NCBI RefSeq assembly: GCF_037392515.1
Contig: NC_090294.1
Coordinates: forward strand, 14,283,038-14,347,037
Direction of reading: 5' to 3'
Source of the DNA: Haliotis asinina
Taxonomy: Eukaryota
Length of the DNA: 64,000 nt
The first letter of the stretch is position 1. The number at the start of each line of letters is the position of its first letter. Shown here one piece after another: positions 19,592 through 58,878 of the stretch. The position numbers and the translations under genes were made by a program. Below the pieces are notes generated by a model that saw only the letters and a list, made by a program, of their open reading frames with translations, made no database searches and had not been told where the DNA came from.

Positions 19592-19594
<3 letters not shown>

Positions 19595-30450: not shown

Positions 30451-33249
30451 TGTCTCCAGTACTTGCTGTATTCACACCTTATTTATGTATAAAGACACCG
30501 TGTGCCTTTATGTCACTAGTATATTACTGCATCTATAAACGTTTAAATTCATGGCTGTGAGACGTGTTTGTATTGGTTCCACACACAATGACTGTTCCTT
30601 CAAACTATGAAAGTGTTTGGTGTCATAGGTCATACATATACTTCAACTGGATTCACTGATAGTGTGATCTATTCCCCAATAGGGACTTTTAGAAGTATAC
30701 ACTATTTTGCATGCTTGATTTATTCCCACTTAAGTGGAATAATATTGTCTGGTATATCTATTCCGTTTGGAATTCGCACTGAGACAGATTGTTGGTGTAT
30801 CGAGGGGATATCACAGAGAACTTTAGGAGATAGTGTTAAGTTATGATTGGCTTGCATGGCTGCATTTAGCCACAGTGGAATACTCAGTATTAAAGTTATA
30901 AACTAAAAACTGTAGCAAGGTTAAACAAACTTTACTTCTTTTATGAAATTAAACTGAATGAAGTAGTGCTTCAAAGTACGTTCAGTAGTAGCAGTGTATA
31001 TGAAGAGCGCTCCTGCTATATACAAATGGGTCTTGTCAAATAGATGTTTACATAGTAGCGAGTGTGACTCATCATAAACATCCGGGTTACTATCAATCTT
31101 CACAAACCCAAACCTTAGAGGGTACAGGTTCGGGTGTCAGATTCTCTGACTTCATTCATGCATGTCATCGTATCCCAAATGCATTGATTTATGCAATTTG
31201 TTATGAGGATCAGTTAATTGTAACGTCACATTAATTGACTTTTAGTTAACAAGGGTTAAAGCGCTGACTTAGGATGTAAACTCACACCTTGAACTAAGGA
31301 TGTGTTTCTGTTTTTTTATTTTATTAAGAGTAGGCACATGAGTTACCTCCCGTTTGTTCTTGTTCCCCTTGTTTCTGGTGGCGCTCAATAGCAAACAAAC
31401 TAGCAAAACCTCGTTTGACGGATCGCCTCATTGAGGACTCTTAACTCCATAGAAACCTCCCAATAAGTGTCAGGCCATGGATTAAGTTTAATAAGGAGTT
31501 CCTGCAACTTCCTGGTGAAGGATTTGGAAGACATCGCAACGCCATTCCACCAGCATCCAGACATGTTCCAATGGTCAGAGTTAGATGTCACTGAACAACT
31601 ATATCATTACGTAGTCTGGTGTTATTTTACGACGGTTTCACTCCAGGGAACATAGCGTGCAGCTCGCTGTACAGGAGTAATAGTGTTGACCGCAACGTTA
31701 AACCCAATTTGATAAAACCAAAGCTCGTCCCTCCTGGAAATGGGGAGAACACTGCTGATATGATGCATTGTATGATATGAGACTAAAACCGTCACGATGC
31801 CAAACACGCGTCTACCGTCACTAAGTAGTGTTTTTATCTTGTCATTCACGTCTGGCAAGCCATGTGTGCCTGTGTCAGCTTATATTTTATTTAAACCAAT
31901 TTCCTGAAATCAGTATGCAATACCACACATAAAAGCTAGCGATATTTGAAGTATAACAGCAATCTGATTAACAGACGGGGAAATTAGAGTAAGATGTGTG
32001 ATTAATGGACAGTCAGAGAGATTTGTTTTAGTTCGTACCTTCCTGTTCATTATATAGAATCAGGATAAGGTCATGAGGTAACTGAATGGAGAAACTGTGG
32101 AAGTGATCTTAATATCTTGTCATTCATGTCCTATGTATCCACTGATAATGACTGTTGAATATCTGAAACAGTTTCAAGTAATTTTATGTAGTAAGCCGAA
32201 TATTATTAAAAACACTATAGTGATATTAGCAATGTCGTCTCTGCATCATAAACTAGGATGTTCCTGCAAATTAGTATTCTGACTAGTTTATGATCCTTGA
32301 ATATGAGTGTCTTGTAGAGGTGGAGAGCTCATTAATGAAATCACCATGTAGTGATACACATGAACATTAGACAAGTAATAATGTATCTCGATAAACAGCA
32401 GCAACACTGTCTTAATGTTAGACACCAAATATTCCTGAAGATACAAAGTTGTACTTAATGATCATTTTGTGCTTGAAACTGTTATAACGATTGCCATAAC
32501 ACCTCTTGCTGAAGTGTTCCAAATGTCGTAGAATCAGTGTGTCAATCTCGTGTAAGGGCCTCGGTATATTTTCATGCATTTCCAATCTTCAACTTCGACC
32601 GGCGAGAGAGCGGGTCTATGAATAAAAGAATTGGAATAGAAAAAAAAGGTGTTTTCACTAATCGTGAAATAAATGTGCATGCGTTTCAAAACAGTTTTTA
32701 CCTGATGATCGTGATGATTTTTTTATGAAACATAGATGAGAAAAGCTTAAAGATCAACTTGTTTCCGCGAATGTCAACTGTAGTGTATATTTTTTCATCG
32801 CATTTGGACATTTATTTCCATAGCGGTTGGAAACGCTGAGGAACTTCATAATAACTTTACTTCACTTTAATTTAAAGTGATTCATAAACACTGTCTCTGC
32901 CATAGTACCGCATGGTGACAATCAGAGAATTGTCTGGATCAGACCATATTTGTTTACGAACAACATCGTACAGCTGTTATACTGCTGAAACAAACGTCAT
33001 CATAGTCACTGTGGTACAATCATAGGATTTTGTATTTGCAATATAAAGATACATTTATAAGAACGGTTCGCTGAAACCCAGTGATTAACCAAATAAGCAT
33101 TCCTTCCCTGTCAGTAGTGCAATTCATTCACACAATGAATAACAAGAATTATATTCCGATATTAGTACACCTATCTGTAAAAAAAACAGGCCATCAAGTG
33201 GTCATTTAAGAGAAACCCTTAGTTTTCAATGAAGCATGGACGTGTAGAG

Positions 33250-34000
33250 GTTTCGCTGCTTACAAGTAAAGAGATGTGTTTTGGAAATAGGTTCGTTTTG
33301 AAACACGAATGAAAAATATGAAAACATATCCTAGCATTATGCCGCAAACTTCATCCGAAACACTTATTACGATAGTTGGTCATCTACTTTCGCGATTAAC
33401 ACTTACTCGTCAATTTTGGTTTTTCTTCCAACGACGAAGTGTCTGTCGGTTCTTTCTGGAGTAAAAAACTAAACATTCTTACTTGAAAGGATGCCGTTTT
33501 GTAAAAACAATACATAAACTATTTTCCAGATGGTCACATCACATCAACAAATTTCTAACTGAAAGCGTCACCACAGGCTTAAAGAACAACGAAACACGGC
33601 AGGCAAAAACAGAAAAGCACATATCCCAAAGAACATAGTAATTGTTTCATCTGCCACACTTCACTTCAAAGGACTAAGATTTATTTTCTCATTTCTTGCT
33701 CTTTTTCCTTGCATCACAATGTTTTATCTTCGACATAAAAAGGGTGAGAACTTCATATTGTATCCACAAAAGGGTGAGAACTTCATATTGTATCCACAAT
33801 ATACCATGAGCAAGGTGCCAAATGGTAAGGATGACAACAGTTCCTTCAGTGGTCACAAGGTTACAGAATTCTATCCCTTTGAAGACGATCACTGACATGC
33901 AGTATTACGTAGCTGTGTCCCAAAATAATATTCTGAATCAAATTGTTGCATCATGGAGAATTGTTTATGCTTTATTTGTAATTGAATCTAATAGGACAGC
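33250..34000. repeat. diverged dispersed/segmental repeat R4, copy 1
   Basis: Blocks cgctgcttacaagtaaagagatgtg, aagaacatagtaattgtttcatctgccacacttcacttcaaaggactaag, ccctttgaagacgatcactgacatgcag and attgttgcatcatggag all have counterparts in the same order at 51340-52215. Partial counterparts lie at 42040-42280. Confidence 0.6.
33738..33797. repeat. 30-bp direct tandem duplication
   Basis: aagggtgagaacttcatattgtatccacaa x2. Confidence 0.85.
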
Positions 34001-35829
34001 AAAGCAAAGAATCACAAATATCAATAATAAAACACGTTTGATATATGCATTTTTAAGAATGCGAATGTCAAAGATGGACAGGATGGACACACATATATTT
34101 TTTATCCATTCAGTTACAATTGCAGGATTTCATGTATATTTATTCAGTCATCTGGAAGAAATATTGTGGGATCACTAATGTTAGTTTTCGTGAAAACTAT
34201 AGTTTGTCATGCACATGAGAATGAGATATTGCCAGTGGGACAAGAGAATGGTCGTTATACCCGTCAGTTGGCCATAAGCCTGTTCGATATAAGTATGAAT
34301 AAGTAAAACAGAATCAAAGTTTTGATCAGCAGATGCTGTTAGAGTAGTAGAGAGTAGTGGAGTCACTTGATCAATGCAATTGGTGTAAGTTACTTATCGT
34401 ATACAATGATTACATGTTCTGGCAGATTTTCTTCAACCAAAAGAAACTTCTTCCGCACTTCGTTATGGATGTACATTGCAGTCAATGAAATGCTTCTTGT
34501 GATGATCTAGAGTACGCATATCTTATCAAATATCATGATGATTAGTTTATATTTACTCAGCTAGATGTATCATGAAACAGACACAACAAATGGTATTTGA
34601 ACAGGAGGCTGTTCAGTATTGAAGAAATAGCTTGAACTGAAATCAAGGTGGAAACCATTTCTGTCATTTGATGAAAGTTTGGATGAGTGTGTGGATGAGT
34701 GTGTGAGCCGATGAGTGAGTGGTCTTTAGCACTATAGATTGGACTCGAAAAGGTTTCAGTGCATGTTGTTCCCAAATGTACCTTCTTTATGAATAGTTGC
34801 GTAACGGGCACATTAATAGGTATGGCCCTGCACCAAAATCCAGTCCGAATTCCACTATAAATGGTAGCTCTGTAATGTGTAAATGCATAACATTTCCTCC
34901 TCAGCTGCACCAATATCAAAGCATGTACACGGCCCCGAACCTCTGAGATTCACTAAACGAATCAGAGCATGCTTTCTTTGGCATCGTTTGAATGTCCAGT
35001 AATGATGAGATACTGCGTGAGTATGTTCACTTATCATAGGATGAAAGGAAGTTGAGATCAGAGAGATTGGACGCTTATGGAATTGTATGTTCAGACCCGA
35101 CAAGTGTTGGCGTTGCTTTGATGTACACAGAATTAGATAGGATATTTCAAAGGGAACATTTTCTGCACCCTTTACCTACCATATGGAGGAATCGATCACA
35201 TCTTTAAATGTCTATGATCATCATTATCCATGCTGCATAACTCTTTCTGAACAAAGTGGACGATCAAGAAGAAAGATCAATAGTTTAACTTATCGACAGA
35301 AAATATTTTAAAGGATATATTTGCTGGTTCTAATACCTGTAACGGCATTAGTTTTTTGTTTTCTTTTGTTTTTTATTAGGGGGATTAGGTGGGTTTTGTT
35401 TGTTTTGGGTTTTTTTCTTTTTCTTCTTGTCTATTTTTCTCGATTACATACCGTTTGGTTCCACCGCAGTTATATATATTTCGAGCTAAATAATCATTGA
35501 TGATGCTGATAATACTGATTGAATAGGTTTCTTTTTCCTTAGGCACGTTTCTACTATTATATGTATCAATGACAGTAACATTAATGTGTTTTCATTGTAA
35601 TTTTAGTACGATACCTTTATCACAGTATTTCAAATATTCATAGTTTCTTTTTGTCAATTCTAGACGTTGGAAAGTACAACATTAAAAAATACTTCATGGA
35701 CAACAAATCATATTTCCAGAGTGCGGCTTTTTGATACAGATTCTCGTACCGTTGTCAGACTGTTACCAACAATTAATCGACTTCATGATACCTAATGCAT
35801 CCGTCTGGCAATACGTATTTAATTCTTTA

Positions 35830-35985
35830 CTGGAGTTTCAGCAGCTGCCAGATGACCCAGTATGGTTATACCCTGCAGTAACTGTGGTGTCCGATTCCGA
35901 ACGGATGTCTGCGGAAAGTCTGCTGCTGGTAATACGATCGTATATCACAGTTGCAAGTTGTCTCAGATGTATTCCATTTGTGTTA
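35830..35985 (+). repeat. dispersed repeat R5, copy 1
   Basis: …ccgattccgaacggatgtctgcggaaagtctgctgctggtaata…caagttgtctcagatgtattcc. The translated fragment MSAESLLLVIRSYITVASCLRCIP parallels ORF 44036-44281 (MSAESLMLIIHMYTTSCLRCIS). Confidence 0.6.
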
Positions 35986-38900
35986 TAGGAGGTCATGTGT
36001 AATGCACAGTATTCATGAAGATGCAGAATTGTTTACGTTTACGTACATACACATCATGGCAATGTTGTACTAAGCGCTCTTTTCAAAAGAAGCTGAGTTA
36101 CTGTAAGCAAGTACAGTGCAAGGCGTTATGAGCGTATTGTGCTTTTTAAGCGACGTGCATGAGTATCGTTGCAACAGTGTGTCGGCCGATGTTCCCACAT
36201 GGACTACAGCTGGTCTTGTGGTGTTAGTATCCCGACGTCACACCAAACCACGGGACAGCAAGGGTAATAATGGCTTTATTAAATTTTAGTCGGCGTGAAT
36301 GTTTTTTTGTTGTTGTTTTGGGGTTTTTTTATATTTGCATGAGTGTCTGAGTCTGTCTGCCTAAGTCTCACTATACTTGTCCGCAGTCCGGGTGTCAGCA
36401 AACTTTGATGTCACGACGCACAATGTATATAACCTGTAAATAAAGACTTCTGTATATCTGTGATTGCTCTAAACATTCTATAACAGTGCGAAAATCGTTT
36501 TGGAATGTATAAGCAATAGACATCAACCATCCAATCACAATACTACAAGATTAGTATAGTTCACAAGACACGTCGCCATCTCATTTGACTTTCTGATCTG
36601 TGTAAGTCTGAAAACGAAAACGCTGAGGTGATCGTAACGAACAGGATCATTGCCCGATTACGTGGAGGAGAGGCTCGGGGTGTTGTCTGCTTGGTGTTGT
36701 ACATTCCTGAATAACACCTGTAATACAGTATCAGTCTGAGACATCATGCCAAAGGGTTAATATGACCATCCTGCTCTAACGCAATGTAGTGACTCCATGC
36801 CTGAGACCTCTCTTTGATTTTGATTTATCCCACAACTTTCCACCGCTAGGCAAGAAAACAATAAGTACCATCTCTTAACAGTTTTTAGTATGAAGAGACC
36901 AGGTATAGGACTAACGACCTTTCGCAGTCAGAAGCAATTGTTGCATTATCTAGACAATGTGGGCAGTTGGGTAAGACATCTCCAATTTGTAGAAGTAATT
37001 GTAAGTCAAAGGAGTTATATTGTGTTGTATCATGTAGCCATTTTGATACAACAAAACTTCACCACCTTCGCAGCGTTTTTGTTTGCCCCTGGTAAATATA
37101 CTGAGGGAAAAACATAAACCATTATGGGATCAAATGAGAGGACAATTGTTCCTTTATTTTTGACTAAAGCTTCTTCGCGAGCTTTGTATTGCACAGCTTA
37201 TGAAGAAACTTGAAACAAAATAAGGGAACACTTACGTGATCCCATAGTTTTTCGCTCCTGTTCCTGTTGTGATTTACTCACGTTTCCATGTCACAATTTC
37301 AAATGCTAAAGACAACGGTCGTGTCAGAGAGTCTCTAATTACGTTGTTTAAATTAATCAGGAAGAATCACGCATTGCTCACCTGATTCCGCCAGATATAG
37401 AGGTGACTCGTTCATACGAAGTCTTCATCGTGAATGGCCACCAAGCAAAACTCTCATTCAGAGGACCCTTTTCGGTTGGTCGCTTGTTTCAAGACGATCA
37501 TTCAGAAAATAAAAGTTGTTGAAAAGAAATGTTGGTGAGTTCTAGGTTGTTATCATGTGAGAAGGTTTACATAGAATATGGGCTAATCAGCTCCAAATAA
37601 ATAGACTAGGTATATGTAGCATTGATTTTATTTTTAATTAATTCTTTTTATTTTATTTTTTATTTATTGGGGAGGAAGGGATGGGGGTACTTTTTTGGCG
37701 TTCGATCATTATTTAAAAGCCCAACATGGCTTTCGTCACACTAAGGCATTCATATCCATCATACCTTGTTTTTCGCCCTCGGTGCACACGTAATGCTGGA
37801 CTATGATTTCAATGGCACAATCGTTGTTGTCGGACCGGATGTGATTAACAGCATTTCTATCAAGATCGATTTCTTTTCCATTTGCCTATCCTCGGCCCGA
37901 ACGACCTGGTATGTAATAGCTGAAATCTTACACAGCTGTAGCATTCGCGCAGCATCGGAGTGGAAGGTATCTACCATCTGTTTCTTTCGACACCGCTGGA
38001 TCCGGTTTGGTTAAGGTTTACTGCATAAAGTCTAAAGCTTCACAGGCCTCACTTGTCTTATCAATCTCAATAAACCCTTAACTCTCCAAAAAGTACAAGC
38101 CACATCGATATCTTTCATCATTTCTTTTTCTTTTTTCTTTTTTTAAAAACCACGTTGAAGATTTTAAATCAATTATTACATCAAGGATCTACTACATCTT
38201 TTCTCTCAAGAGAGATAGTGACAATGCATTTGCTTGGCCGCCAGGATATGTATTTGTTTATACTTCAATGATTTACTGATGCTGTGTGCCATTCTAAACC
38301 TAAACATTCTTTTCTAACGTCAGGATTGACAAGTTTAGTAATTTCGTTCTCTATTGATGATTCGATTCAAAATGCTGAGGACAATAATTAAATAGTCCAT
38401 CTTGAAATGACGAAACTTTGTCTGACATATCATGTGATTTCCTACGCCTGATTAACCAGCAGGCTGGTTGTGTTGACGCGATTCGTGTTTGTGAACGCCA
38501 TTCCCTGGTCGTGAATGTAATTCCTGCTACGACTATGTCCTACTAAATATGAAATTTGGCCGTAATTTAACACTGACAAACAAAATCGTAGAATACCGAG
38601 AGGAACTTGTGTAGTCAAACTATGGTGGAGGCCCAGTTTGGGTGGCCAGGCACCAGAGCAACTTGTGGTGCGGAGTTGCGTCCCCTTGTTCGATTGTTCG
38701 AATAAAATATGGCAGGTGGAAAATACCAAATCATATTTTGTCCACTTTGCATAATGAACAGAGAATTGAATACCACATATTGGCCATATGGGGAGTTTGT
38801 TTGCTGACAATAAATGTATTATCTAAAGATGTATGACAATATTCGTTGTAGAGAAGTATTGAGTATTATACTACTAATACAACAGAACCTTGAGACACAT

Positions 38901-40429
38901 CTGGAGGTACGTAAGTCCCCATGGTCCCTAGCATGACGATCTACATTCAGCTACTGGTGGTATGTTGTCCGCCTATGTGCTCATTACTATCTGTTCTTCT
39001 AAATACTATCAAATAGTTATGACTTCTAACTGTGATAATCCGTTTATTCTACTATCCATAGATGACAGGTTTTATTCCTTGTATTTACGAGGGGACGTCA
39101 AAAGGTAGTGAGCCTCACCACGACAGTGACATAAGCTATGTTATGTTTTTTTCCTACATAATAACTGTCAACCTCAAGCAGATCGGTTTGTCATGTGTCA
39201 GCCTCACGATCCCTATTATGTTTGACTTTTTTTCTTTGGGTACAAAAAAACCCCTGCAAAATCTGCATCGCAAACTTTAGCAAACAAAATATGTAAGAAA
39301 CATTTCGTGTGTTTGAGCTAGGTAGACGTCCGCTAAATCCAATTTGAAACTACAATCGCTTGTTAAAGTGACTCTCCCTTCATGTTTACTGAAAGAGCTT
39401 GTTTTGGAGACACTACCCAGCCCCTTCCAGATGACTTCATCATAAGGACAGGCCCTGTCTAAATCTAAATCAAGCAATCCAATTCTTTGGCTGTTGATTA
39501 TGACGGGAATACATTCAATACCATTCTGAGCGTAGGTACCTAATGGCATATCGTTTTCATTTCCTGCAATTATTTTACAAATAGTATAGCACAGTGTATT
39601 GTGACAACTCACATCTCGTGAATTACATTACCAACACATGTGAAACTTTGGACATGGCTTTGCTAATGAACCCTTCACAATAAAAATGAAACTTTACAAA
39701 CATTGAACATCGAAAATAGAGTTAGGTTCACTACTTTGGATCTCCCTTCGTAGTCTTAAGATTCAAATTCTCGTCTCGATATGGCACTACCCCACCCACA
39801 TCTCGAGGTTATTGTTATGTTTTTGCTGACGACCACAGCTGACCAGCATTCATTCATCACGTTCCAACGCGATTCATCATTGCCGCTTGCCCTGTTTGGG
39901 TACATGGCCACAATAAATTCGTGAAATATCTGCAACAGACACAAATACCGCGACGGTTTAGTAAATAAGCAAACCCACGCAATGCCGTCAAGGTGCGTGA
40001 TGCTAGTATGCTAGTATCAATCATAAGAGATGCCCTTCGTGCTGTGAGTGCCTATATATCTCTTGTTAGAAATCGAACGTTTCAGCAGATATATTCAGCA
40101 GAATAGTTCTGGGTCCGGATCCACAAAGCGTTCGTAAATCTACGACCTGTCGTAACTCTATCGTACATCATAGACGTACGAACATTGGACATCGAGTATA
40201 TGAACGTTTTCTGGATTGGGATCCTGCCCTTTATCTAAAATAGCCTTTCTTTCTTATTACATCTGTACTGCAGATACATCAGCTTCATGAGGTTGGAATG
40301 TAGATTTACAAGAAAATAAGAAGCTCTCGTGAAACGACACCCTGGAATATATTTAATGATGGTGGGAAATAGAATCTAATGAAAATGTAATGAGAATCTC
40401 CACTGCAGAGAAACACAGTTTCATATAAA

Positions 40430-40920
40430 GGTCAGTGTTAACCCCTTCATAGCAAACGCCAAAGACAACAGCACAAACATCAACAGCGCCGCTAGCGTCG
40501 TCCTCCCACGTCCGGCAAGCATTCGCTGACAAGATCTGACACTTTCGAGAAACTGTCAGTTCAGTGGAGATTATCACTGACAGTTTATATTATTATACTT
40601 CAACTTGTTCTCATTGTGTATTTCAGTACAGGCCAGGATCACCTTCCCCATCCATATTTGATTACAAAGTATATATTACAATTCGAAAGAAGGAAAGAAG
40701 CGAATTGTTTTTCAGACCTTCATCCTCATTTGGCCCCAATGAAACTTGATGTGGCAATCATTTTCTTTAGGCTAATTCAAACTGATTTCAGATTTGACGT
40801 TGAAAATAGCCATGGACAAGCAATAAACACGACAGTTTCTGTGTCCGTTACAAATTAATTTGTTTCGGAGGAAATTGGATCCTTGATCCGCGGTTTCATT
40901 TGATTTCGATCAATACATTT
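40430..40920 (+). repeat. dispersed repeat R6, copy 1
   Basis: …caacagcgccgctagcgtcgtcc…ccatatttgattacaaagtat…ctaattcaaactgatttcagatttgacgttgaaaatag…aaacacgacag…acaaattaatttgtttcggaggaaattggat… all have counterparts in 58150-58625. ORFs 40616-40858 and 58366-58623 share …IFF/IFL-S/R-L-I/V-QTDF-R/G-FDV-E/Q-NS…. Confidence 0.65.
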
Positions 40921-41533: not shown

Positions 41534-41596
41534 ATATGTATATGTATGTTTGCGTGTGTATGTGCGTACGTGTGCGCGTGCGAGTGTGCGTGTGTC
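41534..41596. repeat. GT/GCGT-rich low-complexity tract
   Basis: tatatgtatatgtatgtttgcgtgtgtatgtgcgtacgtgtgcgcgtgcgagtgtgcgtgtgtcg. Confidence 0.85.
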
Positions 41597-48186: not shown

Positions 48187-48340
48187 GGATTGACTGTGTA
48201 TTTCTTTCGTTGCATTGAATTATGAAACTAAAAACCAAAGTGCACACTTTTGTAAGAATCCGCTACGAGGATTCACACAGTTTACACACTGGTTTTTAGT
48301 TTCATACTTCAATGCAACGAAAGAAATACACAGTCAATCC
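48187..48340. repeat. long near-perfect inverted repeat (51-bp arms, 52-bp loop)
   Basis: ggattgactgtgtatttctttcgttgcattgaattatgaaactaaaaacca at 48187-48237 against tggtttttagtttcatacttcaatgcaacgaaagaaatacacagtcaatcc at 48290-48340. The second is the exact reverse complement except at one position. Confidence 0.85.
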
Positions 48341-48440
48341 TTAAGTGAATAGTCTTGCAGTTTCCGAGAATCTAATACCATTTGATCATGTTTTCCAACC
48401 AGTCCGATTACAGAACACAGTGTCTTTTTGTTTACAATTA
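48340..48440 (+). repeat. ~100-bp repeat, copy 1
   Basis: cagtttccgagaatctaataccatttgatcatgttttccaaccagtccgattacagaacacagtgtctttttgtttacaat against 49340-49440 (…caaccaatcagattacagaacacagtggcttttggtttacaat). Confidence 0.7.
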
Positions 48441-49087
48441 AGGATGCATCATGACGCAATCATATACTTAGACTATCCAAACCTGATTATAAATCTGAGG
48501 TTCGAAATAACAAAGTAAGAGCTATAAACATGACGGTTTCTCTGTTTTTGATGCAGATAATTTGTGTCGGAAAGAAATGAGAATTATGTATCACTGTGTT
48601 CAAATTTATCGCGATCAATAAATTTCCACACAGACAAGGAAATTTTAAGTATCGATCTAGAAAACCCGTCGTCTCTATCACGTAATCAGCCATGGTCCCC
48701 CTAAGCTGTCTCCTGCATGACCTCAATATGTTATTAGTGTAAGAAAATGTGTTTTCAATCCGACCGTGACAACTCCAATGTTAAGGCGCACTAACATCTC
48801 AAGCTTAGGGACCTAAGTGACTTCCCACTTATAAACTTCATGTTATAAATGAGAATGACCGCAGTTGAACAAGTGGACAGTCGCTAAAAACATCCCAGTG
48901 TCATTGAATGTACTCTCGTGATCTTCCCTAAGGGAGCAATTGTGCAAGTGGTTCATTCAAATTCAAAACGAACAAAGCGTCTAGAGATACGTAATATAGC
49001 ATGACTGAATTAGGAGAAAACCATAATGTGTTGGCCATTTTCCGGGTGTTATTGAGTATTTGAAGCAGGGGAATGCATTTGGAACCG

Positions 49088-49290
49088 ACGGCCAACACAT
49101 GATGTTTATCGACATTGTAAACACAAAAGTAAACCAAAGGGTTTTACTGTCTGCACTCGTTTACATCGAGTATGGGTTCAGGAGTGAAGTGTTCCAGCTG
49201 GTTCCCATATTAGCATCTAGAGTTGCTCATTTGTGACGTCATTCTCACTTCACGTCACAATATGATTTGAATGACGTCACCACTGTTGAT
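49088..49290 (+). repeat. dispersed ~190-bp repeat, copy 2
   Basis: See copy 1. The 50 bp immediately upstream (49041-49090) is the reverse complement of 47199-47248. Confidence 0.75.
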
Positions 49291-49339
49291 GACACAAGAA
49301 AACAATTGTTTGCGACGTTTCTACGTGTTAATACGCAGT

Positions 49340-49440
49340 GAATTGTCTTTCAGTTTCCGGGAATCTAATACCATTTGATCATGTTTTTCAACCAATCAGA
49401 TTACAGAACACAGTGGCTTTTGGTTTACAATGGGTCTATA
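49340..49440 (+). repeat. ~100-bp repeat, copy 2
   Basis: See 48340-48440. Confidence 0.7.
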
Positions 49441-51339
49441 GAAACCAAGAATACACTTACCGTGAATAAAGTGTGTTAGTTTCGTTTTTCTCTGCTTCCA
49501 GCATTATTCCAGTAATATCAGGGCGGGGGCGTTGCAAGATGATGTTTTATCCGGTCAGTCCGAGTAAAACTATCCCCCAAAGAATTTAACTCTGACTCAA
49601 AAATATTATCCTCAAACCGTCACTAATTAAAATGGAAAAACAAATTGTAAAATATTTTTAAAACTTTTGATTATGAAATAAAAAATGTTTAAATTAACTT
49701 GTTAGGTTTTTGACTGTACCTGAGAATGTGTTCTGTATAGAAATAAAATTATTAACATGATTTTTATTACAAGAATGCAGTCTGAGAGAACAGTCTGTGG
49801 TCAATATAAGCTACCAATTTGACTCATAAACCACCTATTGGCTGAGAAGGTATTTCTTCAATGGTGCATTCCCACAATGTAAAAGCAAAAGTGTGTAATA
49901 TATGAAGTACTGCAAATTGAGAAGGAGAATACCAGACGTATGGTGAACAGTATCTCAACCACTGCCGGCATCCATCAGCAACACATTCAAAACATGCCAC
50001 CTGGCCACCGGAGCATAGACACACATAGTACAAGTAAAATAGGACTCTGAATCGGAATGTATTTCTGTAATGTCTTCAACATGTTGTCCACAAACCATTA
50101 CTTTGGCCGTGAATGCTTACCAAAGAATTTTTAAGCTGGATTCGTAAATATGCTTTATAGAATGCTCATCCAAGACTTTATGAGTCAGTGTCATTACTGA
50201 TGACACTGATGACTCTGTACGTTAAGTGTACAGGTGGGATCCGCCAACAACACATGCAGTAGCAAGTAAGATGTACACATGAACCATATACAAACATACG
50301 GTACAGGTTAAAATAGGAGATTGAGTCGGAAGGCCTTTCCTTTACTGATGGGCTAGGCCGTGAATATTGAAAACACAACCTTTAACCAAAGTTGAAAAAT
50401 ACTGCAGTCTTTGACGTCTCCCAAGACAGAGCATGGCTGAATACAACTTAATTAAAGCTGTGAAATATGGACATACTGGTCAGGAGTGTGCTTGACATAA
50501 GGGAACCTTTACTTTTGAAAACGTAAAGTCCTCTCTCTTGACATACGGACTTGCATTTGGTTGGTCTGAACAAGCATGGATCGAAAGACGAAAGACGATT
50601 TTGTATCATGTTGTCAAGGTTTCAAGGACTGCTTGTATCTGATGGTAAGGTCTCATCGCATTGCTGTTAATGACAACATGGACTTAAGTGAGCATCCCAT
50701 GGTAATTACGTAAGCTCAAGAGGCAAAACTCTTCGTTAATAAAATATATTTATGTCCATGAAAGGATATCAGGCCTACATTAATTACCTACGTTGTTTGC
50801 CACAATGTTGATTTGGTAAAAAATGTAGGACTTGTGTATATTGCATAGTCCTTGGTACCAAAGTTTACTAGTTTTTTGCATGTTCACAAACAGTATCAAT
50901 CATGTACTGACTGACACGATCTATGTTTGGTTTTATTACAGTAAAGTGGAACTGTTTTGTGAAACTGACATTTGGTACTGATATTGATTCAGATCGATCA
51001 AGCAACCATTTGGCTGAAATATTTCTATGGCAATGATGTTATTACACAATGCCGAACTTCATTGATTAGTGATGTACGACAGTACGTTTCATCAACTTCT
51101 CAAGGCTGTTTGTCCTGGCATTGACTAGAGGGGAAGGGTGAAGATTTCATACTGCAAAAGATTTGACGTTCCAATTAACCTTACCTAACCTTCAGATCTT
51201 TCGTCTGCGTGTACATGAGATAGCATATTGATTAGTTTCGGTTAACATTTGCATTTTCCTGCTTATCACAAATCGAATGTTACACGTACTTTTAAAATTA
51301 TTTCGCACTATTTCAAATATAGTTGTCAAATAACGTAAT

Positions 51340-52215
51340 AGCAATACGACGCTTACAAGTAAAGAAACAAACGTGTTTCACAATCCACTCGGTGTTCTTA
51401 ATGAACAAATGACTAAACAAAGGCAAACATTTTCCCCAGACAAAGTATATAGGCACGGTCTTGTATTATCCTGCAATATTTACAGTGGTAGTTTGTCCAT
51501 CTGACTTTGAGTATGACATGTGTGATCTTCGAAATACAGTTTATTTAAATCGACCAACTGTCTGATAAATCCGGGTCCTGGAACTTCGGTGGACATTGTA
51601 TTGTAAAAAACTATAAGACGGGAAAAACATTTACGTATGCACTCATCACTTCAGTCATATGCTAATCACAATCTGAATCATTTGACTTAATTATAACCAC
51701 AAACCTACCATTCAAATGCGCAAAAGTATATACCACGAAAGAACACTGTAATTGTTGCATCCGCTACACTTCTCATCAAAGGTCTAAGGTATGTTTTCAT
51801 GTTTCTTGATAACTATCTTACACACAGCAGATGGCTCACAGGGATACAAAGCTCAAAATTTCTTCTTTTTATATGTCTACAATCCCCCTAAGCAAGGTTG
51901 CTAAAGTGGGGTTGACTCAATTATGTTCAAAGCTCGAAGCCATCATACAGATGCAGATCTATATTCCTTTTGAAAACGATCACTGACATGCAGTGTGGCG
52001 TGGCGCTGATCCAGCTAGACACCATTCTGTATCATATTATTGTATACTCCCCAGGGACCTGAGATTAATACTACAATGTGACGCTGGGACTCACATTCCA
52101 TCATCGAAGGAAATAAATACCAGCGCCAGGAGCAAACACGAGTGAGCTATATAAATATCCAATAATAAAATATCATGATAATAATAATATTGCTGCATCA
52201 TGGAGTTGCATATGC
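51340..52215. repeat. R4, copy 3
   Basis: cgacgcttacaagtaaagaaacaaacgtg…aagaacactgtaattgttgcatccgctacacttctcatcaaaggtctaagg…ccttttgaaaacgatcactgacatgcag…attgctgcatcatggag. Confidence 0.6.
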
Positions 52216-53109
52216 ACTTTATATGTTTCCGACTGACAATTTCAGAGAACAAATATTCAATACATGTGGACGCACTTTTATATCATTTCACTTCGTTAAC
52301 GTACATTAGAGTTAGATCTGTGAGGACCCGGGTTAGAACTGGTTGTCAACAACTCATGCTCCCGTGACCGGACAATATTCATGCTGTACGCGGAAACTAG
52401 GAACCTTTGCACCGTACGTTTCTCATCCTGTGCGTCAGTGTTCACCATGAATACATGAAAGTCCGTCAAGGTTGTTAATGCTGTCTGTACACGCAGTAAG
52501 TATGTCACGCAGCAAGGAATAACTTGCTCCGTCAGTACAGTCACTGTAATGTATTGTAGATAGTTCTCATTGACAGTGAGATTACCACGAGATGCCTTCC
52601 ACTATTTGTGATGGAGGTACACTTGCAAACAATGGAATGCTGATTCTGAAGGTTTAGTTTCCAGACATCTTAACATCAAATCCATTGATGATTACTTTAG
52701 GTTTACGCCAATAGATGTGACAGACATAGCTGAGATAAGAGAGACAAGGAGTACCACTCTTACCGCTGACGGCAGCTGCTTAAGATATGAGGGTGCTATA
52801 CATAGGATGTGTTAGATATTCCCACGAAGATACAATCTGTAGAAAATTATAGTACTGAAATCCCAGGTCGAAGCAGATGTGGTTAACCTTTCAGTTAGTG
52901 AGGGAGTATAGGGGGTGTGGCTTCTCATACCGCTTTTGACATTTCCTGGTAGGCTTCAGAAATAAAAGAATAAATCCCATCTATAAAGTTTGTGTATGTA
53001 GTATAGACAGAGTGACATATCGGTGGAAGATATCTATGAATAAATCTGCTAAATACTGTGTATTATGACTTGCATTGTATAATTCATTCCAAGTGCTTTT
53101 CCTATCTTT

Positions 53110-53280
53110 ACGAGGTACCCATTCAATGCTGGCTGGACTGGGACAGTACTTTGTCCACGTTTTACAGCACGTTGCTGCATCTGCAGCTAGGTATTTGCAC
53201 GTATTCATGTGGCCACCATCTAGCCATTTACCAACGGATTCCTGGGCTCCTTTAAGTGAACGGGGTAGAGCACTGTTTAC
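53110..53280 (+). repeat. diverged repeat pair member (53.1 kb)
   Basis: See 14041-14190. ORFs 13900-14247 and 53058-53255 share QLG-V/I-CT-x-SCGHHL-V/A-IYQRI. Confidence 0.6.
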
Positions 53281-54187
53281 AAGATTTAGTAACATCGATG
53301 AAACAGTCTGCACACAAGGCTGACTCCAAGGGTTTTCTTTGCGCCCGATCACAGGTGGGCTCGATCCTGGCACCTGATATTGGCTGGATTACTACTTTGG
53401 GCCTTAGACAGCACGCCCTTCAAGCCCCATTTACCAATATACCAACAAACATCATTACAACACTACTTAATTCTCAAAAGATATTACCTATCTGGATTTA
53501 AGAGTTTTTTCAAACTTCCGGCAACTAATCCATATCAGTTTGATATTTCAGTCGTAATTTCATAGTCCCTTAATGCATGTGCTAGAATCATTAATTTACC
53601 CACTGGAAGTATTGATGAATAAATCGAGTTTATTTATGTCATACAGTTGTATAAGCATACAAACGAATAAACTGATACTTATAATCCTACGGGAACCATT
53701 CCGGATCTATACTGACAATACCATCTGACTCACCAGACAGAGAAGTCCTGTAAAGAGACCATTGAACGTATTATTATGTATGTCATGGAAGCTGCATAAT
53801 CCAAATCCTCGATGCCAGTATTCGGTTCCAAATGAATGATTTTTTTTAAATATTAGAAACGTCTGTATTATCTTGTTCGAAACGAAGCTCACCCTTATTA
53901 TTATTACAACGAATATCGCATTGCAGGTTCCAAAGGATGCATGCCTGCCAATTATAGGAAATATTCACTCGATTGAGGGTTTCCGTTGATAAATATCATC
54001 AAAGAAAATCATATCTCACATTGATAAAAAAAATATTTACAATAACATAATGTTTAAATAACTGTAGGAACTGCATTCAAGGCCAACTGAGATTTCATTA
54101 CGGAACCAGTGTTGTGAAAAGAAATATTTTATCACATATACATTATTGACAGACTTCATGCCACGCATATTACTGACAATAATTCCC

Positions 54188-54350
54188 CGTCTAAGCCTTT
54201 GCTTGAGTTTCTGTGTTTACAAGATAACCATTACCACTATATCCTCTGCCAGACAATGTGATAATTGTTATGCCCGATTCCAAACGTATGTCTGAGGAGA
54301 GTCTCCTGCTGATAATATGAACATCAAAAGTTGTCTCAGATGTATTGCAT
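54188..54350 (+). repeat. R5, copy 3
   Basis: gcctttgcttgagtttctgtgtttacaagataacc…ccgattccaaacgtatgtctgaggagagtctcctgctgataata…aaagttgtctcagatgtattgc. Confidence 0.6.
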
Positions 54351-54584
54351 TTTTAACTGAAAGAGTTATCGTGAATACAAAGAGACATGTAATGTATGGT
54401 ATATCATGATGGTCCAGACGTTCCAACGTGTCTCTACATACATACCATGACAAGGATATTCATACTGTCAGTTCCACTAAAAGGACGCCTTTCAGTGAGT
54501 TGTAAGCAAGTGTAGTGCATGAATTCTATAAGGTATTATGGGCGTTTGGTGATAACTGCACCTACAGTAACATGTGTGGGGTGC

Positions 54585-54585
54585 A

Positions 54586-54620
<35 letters not shown>

Positions 54621-54623
54621 ATG
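54585..54623. repeat. (GCGT)n microsatellite
   Basis: gcatgcgtgcgtgcgtgcgtgcgtgcgtgcgtgcgtgcatg, about 130 bp from the mariner terminal repeat. Confidence 0.9.
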
Positions 54624-54753
54624 TGTGCTTCTCTGGACTAGATTACTGCGGGTTTTATAGCGTTTGTTCACAGCGATAACTTGCATGTGTCTCAGTTTAA
54701 CGGTGAGGAGGTCTTGCAATGCTAATCGCCCTAGGTATACAGCTGAATATTTA

Positions 54754-54783
54754 CGAGGGGATGTCAATACGTTTTGAGCCTTG
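54754..54783. repeat. inverted terminal repeat of the mariner-like element (end nearest the transposase C-terminus)
   Basis: Direct reading of the sequence. It pairs with 56044-56073 as a reverse complement with one mismatch. Confidence 0.8.
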
Positions 54784-54818
54784 CATAGAAAAACACAAAA
54801 TATTGGTTTGAACAACAT

Positions 54819-55899
54819 TTATTTTTCAACATAGTCCCGTTGTGAGTCAAGACACTTGTTCCATCTTTTCTGCCAGGCGCTGATGCCATCTCTGTAGAAG
54901 GCGCCATTTTGGTCCTCAAACCAAGCCTCAGTAGCAGCAATGAGCTCATTATCATCCTGAAATCTACGACCACGCAAGTGTTTCTTGTGATTTGGGAACA
55001 GATGGTAATCACTTGGTGCCAGGTCTGGAGAGTACGGGGGGTAGTGGGGGTGGGGGGGTGGGGGGTCTGGGGTGCGGCAAGATTTCGTACCCGCATTCCT
55101 GGACAGCAGCGGCTGCAACGCGAGAGGTGTGTACTGGAGCATTGTCTTGATGTAGAAGAATACCACGTCTGATCTTGCCCCGGCGCTTCTCCTTGATTGA
55201 CTCTCGCACTTGCCTCAACAAGTTAGCGTAATATTCATTGTTCTTCCTTTTGGTAAGTAATCTATGTGGGTGACGCCTTTGCTATCCCAGAAGACTGTCG
55301 CCATTACCTTCTGCACTGATCTGGTGGCTTTGAAACTTTTTGGTCCTGGGAGAAGTCACATGTTTCCATTCCATGGATTCTTGTTTGCTCTCAGGCTCAT
55401 AGTGGTGGATCCAGGTTTCATCACAGGTTACTAGCCTACAGTGAAAATCTTCTGGATTTTTGTTGTATCTGGTTAGCATGGAGTTGCTTATGGTGACCCT
55501 TGTTTGCTTCATTTCATCTGTAAGCATTCTTGGCACCCATGTTGCACACACCTTAAACATGACGAGATGGTCATGAAGAATTGTCTCGATGGATCTGTGT
55601 GAAATGCCCGTGGTCTCCTCTAACTCGTGGAGTGTGATTCGACGATTTTCCAGCACAAGTCTATGCACTCTGTCAATGTTTTCCTGACTAGTGCTTGTTG
55701 TTGGGCGACCTGGACGGGGGTCATCTTCAAGACTCTCTCTACCATGCTTAAATTCATTTACCCATCGTTTGATGGTAGCAGATGAAGGGGAAGACTTCCC
55801 ATAAACTGCTGAAAGCCTTTCTTTAATGTTCTTCGCCGGGTTTGTTTCAAGAACTAAAAACGTAATTACTGCTCTATAGTCAGTTTTATTCATTTTCAC
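54819..55899 (-). pseudogene. mariner-type transposase, interrupted by at least two frameshifts and a G-rich insertion
   Basis: Three minus-strand ORF pieces cover it. ORF 55282-55899 carries the N-terminal HTH and linker (…GRPTTSTSQENIDRVHRLVLENRRITLHELEE…VTCDETWIHHYEPESKQESMEW…). ORF 55009-55221 carries …ILLHQDNAPVHTS…GYEILPHP…. ORF 54819-55166 carries …PPYSPDLAPSDYHLFPNHKKHLRGRRF…. These are the hallmark motifs of mariner transposases. The frame breaks near 55300 and near 55040-55170. Confidence 0.8.
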
Positions 55900-56043
55900 T
55901 GCCGTGGGGGGTGTCTCTTTCTGTCAATGTGAGCTGTTCAATAACTTCTGAGGGTAGGATACGAAAACTTACATATCACATCAGCTACACCCCAAGGTTC
56001 AATGTCGTACCATAGGCTGTGAAACCTGGGTATGAAAAATGCT

Positions 56044-56073
56044 CAAGGCTCAAAACGCATTGACATCCCCTCG
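56044..56073. repeat. inverted terminal repeat of the mariner-like element (end nearest the transposase N-terminus)
   Basis: caaggctcaaaacgcattgacatcccctcg is the reverse complement of 54754-54783 except at one position. It is followed by TA. Confidence 0.8.
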
Positions 56074-56892
56074 TATCGTAAGCAGAAACAGGATATGTTT
56101 TGAGATAGGATATGTGTTGGGATAGTATATGTTTTTGAACAGATCATTTAGTATTGGATAATTGACTTTCGCATATCCTCGCCAACAACAACTCGTCATT
56201 GGTCCACCGTACCTCCGTATAGAATAGCTGATTTCTTGGACAGCGGCAGCACCCCTGCAGTACATTCGTTTAGCGTCAGAGCATAAGGCAACTGCCATCT
56301 GTATCCTGCGATAGTGATGGTTCAGGATTGTTTCACTACATAGCGTCCAATATTTCACAGACCTCACTTGTCTCGTCATTCTCAATAACCCCTTCACACT
56401 TCGAAAATGACAAATCGCCTCCAAACCCCTTACCACCACTAAACACCCTTTTTACAAACCTGTTAGAAGACCTTAAATTCATTAGTACACTAATTATCTA
56501 CTACATCTTAATATTCCCTAGAAAAAGAGAAGTTGATAATACTTTACTGCACCATCAGGGTAGAAATGTGTTTAATATTTTATTGCTTTACCGATCCCCT
56601 GTGACATTTCAAAACGTAATGTTTTGTGAAGCGTCTGTATTGACGACTTTAATCAAGTATTGTCTTTTAATAGTTCAATTTTTAATGCTTGATGGCATAA
56701 TTAAATAGTCTATTTGGTAATGACGACGCAGTATCTGACGTATCATATGATTACCCTGATAAGATTCCACGTTCTTTGTGGTGAAGCGATTCATGTGGGT
56801 TTTGTATTGTTTTTTGTTTGTTTAGGGTTTCTTATTACATTTTATTTATTTTGTTGGCACTGTGTAAATAATCATGTCTGGACTAGACATTC

Positions 56893-57010
56893 CAATGATT
56901 GACATCATGAGCATCGGTCTACGCAATTGACTTGTGTCAACCAAGTCAGCGAGTCTGACCTCCCGACCCCATTAGTCGGCTTTTACGACAAGCATGGGTT
57001 GCTTGTGTTA
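56893..57010 (+). repeat. SINE-like family core copy
   Basis: catgagcatcggtctacgcaattgacttgtgtcaaccaagtcagcgagtctgacctcccgaccccattagtcggcttttacgacaagcatgggttgc. Confidence 0.45.
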
Positions 57011-57232
57011 ACATTTTCTCAGTGTTATCAGAGCGGGATATCTGAGGTAAAACCATGCAGATGGAACTGGCATGTATGATCTTTATGTAGGAGAGAGAAG
57101 AGTGACAAGGGGTGCCTCTCATGCAAGTAACTCTAAAATATATCTGGATACGATTTCACCTGATTCACGTATTTAATCCAAAGAGACTGACCAAATGCGA
57201 TTACTCTTGTGAGGCTATGACTTGAATTTGAC

Positions 57233-57415
57233 AACTGAGTGAATGAGTGAGTGAGTGAGTGAGTGAATTTACACCTCCTTTAGAAATATTCCAGCAATAT
57301 CACGGCGGGGGGCACCAGAACATGGGCTTCACACATTATACCCATGTGGGGAATAGAACCTGGGTCCTCGGCGTGACGAGCGAACGCTTTAACCACTAGG
57401 CTATCCCACCACCCC
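57233..57415 (-). mobile_element. SINE-like element: tRNA-like head, conserved box and (CACT)n tail
   Basis: The minus strand reads GGGGTGGTGGGATAGCCTAGTGGTTAAAGCGTTCGCTCGTCACGCCGAGGACCCAGGTTCTATTCCCCACATGGG, with A-box-like TAGCCTAGTGG and B-box-like GGTTCTATTCC. It continues with …CCGCCGTGATATTGCTGGAATATTTCTAAAGGAGGTGTAAATT and then (CACT)n, which appears as (GAGT)n on the plus strand at 57233-57267. The same box plus microsatellite recurs elsewhere in the window. Confidence 0.6.
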
Positions 57416-58149
57416 ATTGGACAACTAATGGATAGCATACTGCCTCTTTCCCTTATGCTTTGGACACTATATAGTGAGTGAGCGTAACGTGCCAAAGTAA
57501 GATCATTTCAGCTCGGAAAGGAACGTTTCACCAGGAGTTTTCGTCTTAAGTTTCCACAGTCACGATTGACGACAACAAATCCTGCAGCAATTCATACCTC
57601 ACCAAGAAATATCCCAGAAACATAATGTATGAATAAATGTCCCTATGCTGTGTGTATAACGTGTATTTTGATTTACTGAGATGTGAACACGAACCTTGAG
57701 TGTAGAAAGATGTCCATGTACATCCGTCATTTAATATTCTCAATTGTCACTGAATGTTTAACCGACGTGGATGCTATGACATGTTAGTACATGAGCTTGC
57801 TCAAACAATACCTTCGTAATCAGATTATCTGTCACATGAGAAGACTTTTGTGCTTTATGCGTACAATATCGTCAGTGAAATAGAACGGTTTGACAATCTG
57901 AACATTTCTGACTGTTATCTAAGATAGATATTTCGTATGACATACTTCGGACACATCTGAAAACTAATTTAAACTAATGCCCTAGTTTACTTACGGCAGT
58001 AATGTGCGTTTTTGCTGCTTTGGGCATTGTAGATACGTTATACATACACCTACCACCTTGACAAATGAGAAAGGTAGAATGGTAAAAATGTTGGAATAAA
58101 AAGGATAAAGGAAATGAGAATGTAATAAAACCTCCACAAAAACAAGTCT

Positions 58150-58625
58150 ATTTGAAGGTCACGGTTAACCCGTAGGTGGCAACTTCCAAGGAAAACAGCA
58201 CACATATCGGCAGCATCGACAGCGCCGTCCTCGTCTGTGATGTTACCTACCTATCACTCACAAAAGGTGGCACTTACGAAAAACTATCAGTTTACGAGAG
58301 ATTATGACAATATAAATTATTTGAACTGAAGAGTCTGTCACCCTTTATCGCCTTAGAGCCCATATTTGAAAACAATAGATATGTCACATTTCGTTATAAG
58401 GAAAGAAACGACTGGAATATTTTTAGATCTTAATCTACACTTCCCCGCGGGCTTCAGGCAACTTCATGTTGCAGTCATTTTCTTGAGTCTAGTGCAAACT
58501 GATTTTGGATTTGATGTTCAAAATAGTTATAAACACGACGCTTCACTGTTTCTGATACAAATTAATTTGTTTCAGGAGAATTTGGATTCTTGTAACACAG
58601 ATTCATCATACTTTGATCAATAAAT
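58150..58625 (+). repeat. R6, copy 3
   Basis: ggtcacggttaacccg…atcgacagcgccgtcctcgtc…ctagtgcaaactgattttggatttgatgttcaaaatag…aaacacgacgc…acaaattaatttgtttcaggagaatttggat…. Confidence 0.65.
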
Positions 58626-58630
58626 TTCAA

Positions 58631-58878
58631 CTCAGTGAACTCAGCTAAATGACGGCGGTCTGTAAATAATCGAGTCTGGACCAGATAATTCAGTGATCAA
58701 CAACATGAGCATCGATCTGCGCAACTGGGAACCGATGACATGTGTCAACCAAGTCAGCGAGCCTGACCACCCGATCCCGTTAGTCGCCTCTTCCGACAAG
58801 CACAGTCGCCTTTTATGGCAAGCATGGTTGCTGAAGGCCTATTCTACCCCGGGATCTTCACGGGTCAGGATATGATAG
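58631..58878 (+). mobile_element. SINE-like family copy (5' module, core, 3' module)
   Basis: …gacggcggtctgtaaataatcgagtctggaccagataattcagtgatcaacaacatgagcatcgatctgcgcaactgggaaccgatgacatgtgtcaaccaagtcagcgagcctgaccacccgatcccgttagtcgcctcttccgacaagca…ggcaagcatggttgctgaaggcctattctaccccgggatcttcacgggtc. Confidence 0.5.

What the first reader, a model, noticed from the sequence alone, without database searches (positions are those of the whole stretch)
33200..58650. Ancient three-fold tandem repeat of a ~9-kb segment with conserved block order
Three unrelated diverged repeat families each occur three times, and always in the same order, orientation and similar spacing. R4 lies at about 33.6, 42.2 and 51.8 kb. 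R5 lies at about 35.9, 44.2 and 54.3 kb. R6 lies at about 40.4, 46.7 and 58.2 kb. Block identities are only about 65-80% and there are many indels, which points to an old tandem triplication of a ~9-kb unit. The triplication was later remodelled by a mariner insertion in unit 3, minisatellite expansion in unit 2 and SINE insertions. The ORF track treats these as unrelated sequence. Alternatively, all three blocks may belong to one large uncharacterised element (more than 7 kb) inserted three times in tandem.
Basis: seen in the sequence. Interest (0 to 1): 0.6.

Follow-up and report, generated by a model that had tools for sequence, protein, structure and literature searches.

The report
Ancient non-coding tandem triplication
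A stretch of about 26 kb of non-coding animal (probably mollusc) DNA consists of three very old head-to-tail copies of one segment that have since drifted apart and been riddled with transposon insertions; it is real but ordinary genome wear and tear.

Summary
Window 33416-59135 holds three head-to-tail, same-strand copies of one unit. The copies share six to seven collinear blocks (A, A', B, C, D, E, F), not three. All 27 inter-unit HSPs lie on the + strand, against about 0 in dinucleotide shuffles. The three units are roughly equidistant (K2P 0.50-0.55; 61-64% identity), so the two duplication steps were close in time and no homogenisation followed. The blocks are non-coding. Mismatches show no codon periodicity, indels are not multiples of three, amino-acid identity is below nucleotide identity, and frames are open on both strands. 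Pfam finds nothing in units 1 and 3 or in a majority-rule ancestral consensus, and Rfam and RNAalifold give no support. DNA between the blocks is not homologous, and every recognisable insertion is unit-specific, so all postdate the duplication. These are a mariner with a TA target-site duplication, two SINE-like copies, other interspersed repeats, and a 94-bp x6 minisatellite that is an amplified piece of block C. The units have no terminal repeats and no copies elsewhere in the window. The best reading is an old tandem segmental triplication decaying neutrally. A large non-autonomous element in tandem, or weakly constrained non-coding modules, cannot be excluded without the rest of the genome. 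Interest is low.

The parts
33416..41814 (+). Unit 1 of the tandem array. Blocks: A 33416-34041, A' 34375-34584, B 35747-36228, C 37876-38552, D 39931-40086 (weak), E 40346-41052. The expected F copy at the unit 1/unit 2 junction is lost or unrecognisable.
   Evidence: blastn and nhmmer self-comparison; F profile search
41815..51390 (+). Unit 2, the most remodelled. Blocks: A 41815-42327, B 43812-44499, C 44573-45609, D 46028-46453, E split into 46459-46979 and 48438-48783, F 51001-51270.
51391..59135 (+). Unit 3. Blocks: A 51391-52145, A' 52536-52727, B 53913-54667, C 56163-56798, D 57425-57894, E 57944-58639, F 58864-59135, which is the right end of the array.
44830..45393 (+). Minisatellite, 94-bp unit x 6.0, 97% matches. 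It is an amplified internal segment of block C (profile positions 385-484), not foreign DNA.
   Evidence: TRF; block C profile hits each repeat copy
54751..56077 (-). Mariner-family DNA transposon inserted between blocks B and C of unit 3. It has about 32-bp TIRs (CGAGGGGATGTCAAT...), a TA target-site duplication on both sides, and a frame-shifted transposase.
   Evidence: Inverted repeat 54752-54783 / 56044-56075; flanks read directly; Pfam Transposase_1, HTH_48 and HTH_32; homologs named SETMAR-like in Haliotis
56852..57004 (+). SINE-like interspersed repeat copy, unit-3-specific, between blocks C and D.
   Evidence: At least 7 copies in both orientations across the window; 3 copies in an unrelated metagenome contig L001
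58650..58812 (+). SINE-like interspersed repeat copy, unit-3-specific, between blocks E and F.
46985..48437 (.). About 1.45 kb inserted inside block E of unit 2. It contains a younger repeat (47253-47450 and 48343-48444) with a second copy at 49089-49434 (87-92% identical) and a palindrome at 48185-48342.
38875..39071 (+). Interspersed repeat 'Y' in unit 1, between blocks C and D. Other copies lie at 43194-43496 (unit 2, between A and B) and 28883-29137 (outside the array). The positions are not collinear, so these are independent insertions.

Best explanation
This is an ancient head-to-tail tandem triplication of a non-coding genomic segment. Its ancestral content is blocks A-A'-B-C-D-E-F, of which about 3.7 kb is recoverable. 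The inferred mechanism has four steps. A local duplication arose by unequal crossing-over or a replication-based event. A second unequal exchange between the two young copies, or a single triplication event, followed quickly and produced three copies. Recombination between copies then stopped, and each copy accumulated substitutions, indels and its own transposon, SINE and minisatellite insertions independently, swelling the units to 7.7-9.6 kb. No function is implied; the blocks are what remains alignable after neutral decay. Shown here: tandem collinear same-strand structure, junction continuity, near-equal deep divergence, absence of coding, domain or RNA-family signal, and unit-specific insertions. 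Inferred: the recombination mechanism, neutrality, and the single-locus status of the blocks.
For: Six to seven blocks keep the same order and strand in all three units, with HSP E-values down to 1e-61. There were 27 of 27 inter-unit HSPs on the + strand against about 0 in shuffles. Block F lies about 140 bp upstream of A3 and about 230 bp downstream of E3, and most of that 230 bp is a SINE, so units abut with no unique spacer. K2P distances are 0.552, 0.495 and 0.517 on 1714 shared columns, which is star-like with no sign of homogenisation. Codon periodicity is absent and indel lengths are arbitrary. Amino-acid identity is below nucleotide identity, with frames open on both strands. Pfam found nothing in units 1 and 3 except the mariner, which served as positive control, and nothing in the majority consensus, which also did not restore ORFs. 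Rfam found nothing, and there is no supported RNA structure. Inter-block intervals are not homologous, with z from -1.7 to 1.6 against 10-23 for the blocks, and they hold unit-specific mariner, SINE, Y and X repeats. Block profiles hit nothing in the other 38 kb of the window. A second ancient triple repeat and a recent 2.36-kb duplication in the same window show that the region undergoes tandem duplication.
Against: Only about 30-45% of each unit is alignable, and the rest shows no residual similarity. That fits insertion and deletion turnover, but it is also what selective retention of the blocks would produce. Two short cores are better kept than the background invariant fraction of 0.46: about 55 bp in block A, and 35895-35934 in block B with 31 of 40 invariant sites (p=5e-5). 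F is missing at the unit 1/unit 2 junction. Genome-wide copy number of the blocks could not be measured, so a dispersed repeat family is not excluded.
Confidence: 0.75

Rival explanations
1. Each unit is a copy of one large (3.7 to more than 7 kb) uncharacterised, probably non-autonomous, transposable element. The three copies either integrated head-to-tail, as Penelope-like elements and some Helitrons do, or were generated as an LTR-internal-LTR type array.
For: The array has sharp limits near 33416 and 59135 and holds exactly three A-to-F units. The genome is rich in mobile elements, including a mariner and SINE-like repeats. Near-equal divergence of the three copies would also fit a single burst.
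Against: No reverse transcriptase, integrase, transposase or other domain was found in unit 1, unit 3 or the ancestral consensus, while the same scan did find the mariner. The first and last 1.5 kb of each unit share no direct or inverted terminal repeats. No block copy occurs in the other 38 kb of the window or in 40 kb of related mollusc contigs. The block C open frame has no relatives among 1.84 billion representative proteins; this is a weak test because the source genome is absent from that library.
Confidence: 0.1
2. The blocks are functional non-coding modules, such as exons of a tandemly triplicated lncRNA or paralogous cis-regulatory elements, retained by weak purifying selection while the DNA between them turned over.
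For: Conservation is patchy, with sharply non-homologous intervals between the blocks. Two cores are better conserved than background.
Against: Block divergence is very high, K2P about 0.5 with frequent indels. The conservation islands are only marginally significant once the roughly 2,000 windows tested are taken into account. There is no Rfam match and no covariation-supported structure. Demonstrable insertions explain at least part of the patchiness.
Confidence: 0.08
3. The units are long-dead pseudogenes of a tandem protein-coding gene family, and the blocks are decayed exons.
For: Tandem three-copy arrays with conserved short blocks are typical of gene clusters. A few frames are open in two or three copies, for example the ...PKNxVIVSSATLHxKGLR... 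frame in block A.
Against: Mismatches are spread evenly over codon phases, indels break the frame, and amino-acid identity (27-60%) is below nucleotide identity (60-80%) in every candidate frame, with open frames on both strands. The majority-rule ancestral consensus does not lengthen ORFs and has no Pfam hit.
Confidence: 0.05
4. R4, R5 and R6 are independent interspersed repeats that lie together here by chance.
For: None beyond the general abundance of repeats in the window.
Against: Six to seven families each occur exactly once per unit, in the same order and strand, three times over. They have 0 copies in the remaining 38 kb, whereas the true interspersed SINE-like repeat has 5 copies there.
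Confidence: 0.01

Closest known systems
Tandem segmental duplications (low-copy repeats formed by unequal crossing-over or replication slippage)
   Same: Head-to-tail, same-orientation, collinear copies with continuous junctions. After the duplication each copy shows independent decay and its own transposon insertions.
   Different: Most catalogued segmental duplications are recognised at 90% identity or more. This one is at 61-64%, near the limit of detection, and contains no gene.
Macrosatellites (for example D4Z4, DXZ4, RS447; named from general knowledge, not tested here)
   Same: Kilobase-scale units arranged in tandem.
   Different: Macrosatellites have many copies kept near-identical by concerted evolution. 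Here there are only three copies, with no homogenisation (K2P about 0.5).
Tandem arrays of transposable elements (Penelope-like elements, Helitron tandems, LTR-internal-LTR arrays)
   Same: Multi-kilobase units head-to-tail in a transposon-rich animal genome.
   Different: No reverse transcriptase, GIY-YIG, Rep/helicase or integrase remnants were found, there are no terminal repeats, and no dispersed copies were detected.
Tandem gene clusters and their pseudogene remnants
   Same: Three paralogous units whose short conserved blocks are separated by unconserved DNA.
   Different: The blocks show no coding signature of any kind.

Membership tests
Tandem segmental duplication | Copies adjacent, in the same orientation, with homologous blocks in the same order | tested here: met
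   27 of 27 HSPs on the + strand and collinear; shuffles gave about 0.
Tandem segmental duplication | Homology continues across unit junctions, with no unique spacer between copies | tested here: met
   Block F lies between E2 and A3 and again directly after E3. It is met only in part, because F is not detectable at the unit 1/unit 2 junction.
Tandem segmental duplication | Unit sequence is single-locus, not dispersed through the genome | not testable with these tools
   The source genome is not available. There were 0 copies in 38 kb of flanking window, 0 in L002/L003, and 0 for the block A core in the viral and metagenome collections.
Macrosatellite | High inter-unit identity maintained by concerted evolution | tested here: not met
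   61-64% identity, K2P 0.50-0.55.
Macrosatellite | Copy-number polymorphism between individuals | not testable with these tools
   Only a single sequence is available.
Autonomous transposable element (LTR, Penelope-like, DNA transposon, Helitron) | Remnants of element-encoded proteins | tested here: not met
   Pfam scans of units 1 and 3 and of the ancestral consensus found only the unrelated mariner.
Autonomous transposable element (LTR, Penelope-like, DNA transposon, Helitron) | Terminal direct or inverted repeats | tested here: not met
   No HSP at E<0.1 between the first and last 1.5 kb of any unit.
Autonomous transposable element (LTR, Penelope-like, DNA transposon, Helitron) | Multiple dispersed copies with target-site duplications | not testable with these tools
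   No genome is available, and the divergence is too high to recognise target-site duplications.
Tandem protein-coding gene family | Conserved blocks show codon-structured conservation and a shared open frame | tested here: not met
Clustered structured non-coding RNA genes (miRNA or snoRNA clusters) | Match to a known RNA family, or a conserved structure supported by covariation | tested here: not met
   Rfam gathering-threshold and E-value modes gave only chance-level hits. RNAalifold was weak or empty. Three sequences give low power.
Mariner/Tc1 transposon (the insertion in unit 3) | Terminal inverted repeats, TA target-site duplication and a DD(D/E) transposase with an HTH domain | tested here: met

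The most novel reading that the evidence does not exclude
Blocks A-F are not neutral debris. One possibility is that they are the exons or regulatory modules of a triplicated non-coding locus retained under weak selection. The other is that they form a new large non-autonomous mollusc element that builds head-to-tail arrays. The neighbouring, unrelated three-copy array at 3.5-20 kb, of similar age, would then be a second example of the same process.
Probability: 0.1. Interest if true: 0.45.

Novelty: new member of a known kind. Interest (0 to 1): 0.15.

Why it matters
It matters little beyond annotation. It shows that deep (K about 0.5) tandem duplications can still be recognised in non-coding mollusc DNA from collinear block order. 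It also gives an internal timeline: every mariner, SINE-like and minisatellite event in the array postdates the triplication. The window holds two ancient three-copy arrays and one near-identical 2.36-kb duplication, which suggests a locally duplication-prone region. No gene, RNA or novel mechanism is implied.

Tried and rejected
1. Coding exons or pseudogenes. Six-frame blastp, phase and indel statistics, a per-frame exon scan, ancestral consensus ORFs and three Pfam scans were all negative.
2. Pfam on raw DNA references failed because the tool refuses translations that contain stops. I used X-masked or stop-free segments instead. Unit 2's inter-block DNA was not scanned.
3. Known RNA families and tRNAs: none found.
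4. RNA structure in the two best-conserved cores: unsupported.
5. Relatedness of the upstream P-S repeat family to A-F: none by nhmmer.
6. My first inter-block homology test was badly designed, because free end gaps let all scores collapse, and it was discarded. The redone test is.
7. Locating the source genome by exact ORF look-ups: four failures.
8. Public DNA scans. The block A core had 0 hits in viral and metagenome contigs. The SINE core had 0 viral hits and 1 metagenome contig.
9. Related ENA contigs L002 and L003 share only the mariner.
10. The block C open frame against 1.84 billion representative proteins gave one marginal hit, E=9e-4. The query itself was not recovered, so the negative result is weak.
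11. The SINE superfamily could not be assigned from PMC4758252, because consensus sequences are not in the text.
Full report
**Context**

The window is AT-rich (about 38% G+C) throughout. It has no tRNA gene and no Rfam match at gathering thresholds. Its longest ORF is 205 aa, a mariner transposase fragment. That transposase's closest named relatives, at 66-75% identity, are all annotated in abalone (Haliotis rufescens, H. asinina, H. cracherodii). A roughly 200-bp SINE-like repeat occurs at least seven times in both orientations in the window. The window is therefore eukaryotic, most likely from a gastropod mollusc. The exact source could not be found.

**Checking the observation**

With more permissive scoring (word size 7, +1/-1), the picture becomes much stronger than three families. 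A tiled nhmmer search and block profiles refined it further. The blocks, all on the + strand and in the same order, are:

| Block | Unit 1 | Unit 2 | Unit 3 |
|---|---|---|---|
| A | 33416-34041 | 41815-42327 | 51391-52145 |
| A' | 34375-34584 | not detected | 52536-52727 |
| B | 35747-36228 | 43812-44499 | 53913-54667 |
| C | 37876-38552 | 44573-45609 | 56163-56798 |
| D | 39931-40086 (weak) | 46028-46453 | 57425-57894 |
| E | 40346-41052 | 46459-46979 + 48438-48783 | 57944-58639 |
| F | not detected | 51001-51270 | 58864-59135 |

- The best single HSPs have E=1e-57 to 1e-61.
- All 10, 7 and 10 HSPs between the unit pairs are on the + strand. Twenty dinucleotide-preserving shuffles of one partner gave a mean of 0-0.05 HSPs.
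- The block profiles hit nothing in the remaining 38 kb of the window, apart from one weak E-like match at 62205-62464. The real interspersed SINE-like repeat has five copies in that same 38 kb.
- Chance co-occurrence of independent repeats is therefore rejected for this window.

**Tandem junctions**

Block F lies about 140 bp upstream of A3 and again about 230 bp downstream of E3, and 163 bp of that second gap is a SINE-like insertion. The ancestral order was therefore ...E-F-A..., with no unique spacer, which is the signature of a head-to-tail tandem array. Read as A-to-F units, the array holds exactly three units, from about 33416 to 59135. F is not recognisable at the unit 1/unit 2 junction.

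**Age and order of duplication**

On 1714 columns present in all three units, identities are 61.2%, 64.0% and 63.0%. The K2P distances are 0.552 (units 1-2), 0.495 (units 1-3) and 0.517 (units 2-3), and ts/tv is about 0.8. The tree is effectively a star. Both duplication steps happened close together in time, and there has been no later gene conversion.

**Is it coding?**

No.
- Mismatches in the unit 1 versus unit 3 alignments are spread evenly over the three phases, and gap lengths are arbitrary (1, 2, 4, 5, 8, 13, 19...).
- Six-frame protein comparison gives only weak hits, on both strands.
- In every jointly open frame of 22 codons or more, amino-acid identity (27-60%) is below nucleotide identity (60-80%), with no excess of third-position changes. 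This includes the superficially attractive block A frame ...PKNxVIVSSATLHxKGLR....
- Pfam found nothing in the stop-free segments of unit 1.
- Pfam found nothing in unit 3 except the mariner, which acted as a positive control (Transposase_1 E=4e-13, plus HTH_48).
- The three copies are star-like, so a majority-rule consensus approximates the ancestor. That 3,681-bp consensus does not have longer ORFs than the individual copies, and it has no credible Pfam hit in any of its six frames.

**Is it a structured RNA?**

A permissive Rfam scan of 33000-59400 gave only two chance-level matches, at E=0.14 and E=0.93 and far below their gathering scores. RNAalifold on the two best-conserved cores gave a weak fold for block B and none for block A. 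Conservation islands are marginal. Against a background three-way invariant fraction of 0.46, the best 40-bp window (35895-35934) has 31 invariant sites, p=5e-5, among roughly 2,000 windows.

**What lies between the blocks**

Global alignment of the inter-block intervals gave z-scores indistinguishable from unrelated control pairs (-1.7 to 1.6, with only A-A' at 4.3). The blocks themselves scored z=10-23. An earlier version of this test was badly designed and is discarded. So the intervals are not homologous. Every recognisable element in them is unit-specific:
- **Mariner:** at 54751-56077, with TIRs and a TA duplication.
- **SINE-like copies:** at 56852-57004 and 58650-58812.
- **Repeat Y:** at 38875-39071 in unit 1 and 43194-43496 in unit 2, at non-equivalent positions, with a third copy at 28883-29137 outside the array.
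- **Insertion in block E of unit 2:** about 1.45 kb at 46985-48437.
- **Minisatellite:** 94 bp x 6 at 44830-45393. The block C profile shows it to be an amplified internal piece of block C.

All of these postdate the triplication. The SINE-like copies are 74-81% identical to one another and the units 61-64%, which agrees with that order.

**Transposable-element alternative**

The units have no terminal direct or inverted repeats and no element-encoded protein remnants. No further copies appear in the window or in 40 kb of related mollusc contigs fetched through the mariner. The block A core has no match in the viral or metagenome collections. A 143-aa open frame lying wholly inside block C found one marginal hit (E=9e-4) among 1.84 billion representative proteins. 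That library did not return the query itself, so the source genome is not in it and this negative result is weak. The element hypothesis is unsupported but not excluded.

**Mechanism**

The best-supported account is a local tandem duplication of a non-coding segment, followed quickly by a second unequal exchange or produced as a single triplication event. The three copies then decayed independently and neutrally, with heavy insertion turnover. The structural facts are shown here. The recombination mechanism and neutrality are inferred. From general knowledge, not tested here, an alignable fraction of about 30-45% at K of about 0.5 resembles what is seen between neutrally evolving mammalian genomes at similar divergence.

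**Comparison with known kinds**

It meets the testable defining features of a tandem segmental duplication. It fails the identity criterion of macrosatellites, the protein and terminal-repeat criteria of autonomous transposons, and the coding criterion of gene clusters. It is an ordinary, very old example of a known phenomenon.

**Verdict**

Novelty and interest are low. The one decisive test that could not be run is a search of the source genome for blocks A-F.

Noticed in passing
window 3562-19973: A second, unrelated, collinear three-copy + strand repeat lies upstream. Its blocks are P 3562-3923 / 9530-9890 / 17338-17600; Q 4510-4711 / 10706-10908; R 7093-7493 / 11890-12337 / 18601-19112; S 13063-13275 / 19763-19973. 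Identity is 59-68% and K2P 0.42-0.62, so its age is similar to that of the A-F array. nhmmer finds no homology to A-F.
   Followed up: partly
window 23190-27901: A perfectly adjacent 2,356-bp tandem duplication with only 4 mismatches (99.83%). It contains an imperfect palindrome at 24037-24172, repeated at 26393-26528. It is either a very recent duplication or an assembly artefact.
   Followed up: partly
window 15971-16119, 9901-10037, 56852-57004, 58650-58812 (+); 1768-1853, 31124-31227, 60100-60322 (-); L001 1-53, 1026-1215, 1635-1721: A roughly 200-bp SINE-like interspersed repeat (core ...TGTGTCAACCAAGTCAGCGAGCCTGACCACCCGATCCCGTTAGTCGCCTCTTACGACAAGCATGG...). ARAGORN and Rfam detect no tRNA-like head. 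Three copies sit in a 1.7-kb metagenome contig, PEAW01029925.1, at up to 97% identity over 69 bp. Its superfamily was not assigned.
   Followed up: partly
window 62205-62464: A weak + strand match to the 3' part of the block E profile (E=0.018; E2 sub-profile E=0.0024), about 3 kb beyond the end of the array. It could be a remnant of a fourth unit or chance.
   Followed up: no
window 47185-49434: A younger local repeat. 47253-47450 plus 48343-48444 match 49089-49434 at 87-92% identity. There is an inverted segment 47185-47274 / 49016-49105 and a 158-bp palindrome at 48185-48342, which looks like a MITE. One copy interrupts block E of unit 2.
   Followed up: no
window 21566-22021: A short tandem repeat of roughly 160-bp period (21566-21878 vs 21727-22021), 83-86% identical between copies.
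   Followed up: no
window 13850-14215 vs 52040-52181 and 53104-53275: Two adjacent pieces at 13.85-14.2 kb match two places in unit 3, one inverted at 73% identity and one direct at 78%. This suggests another interspersed repeat family inserted in unit 3.
   Followed up: no
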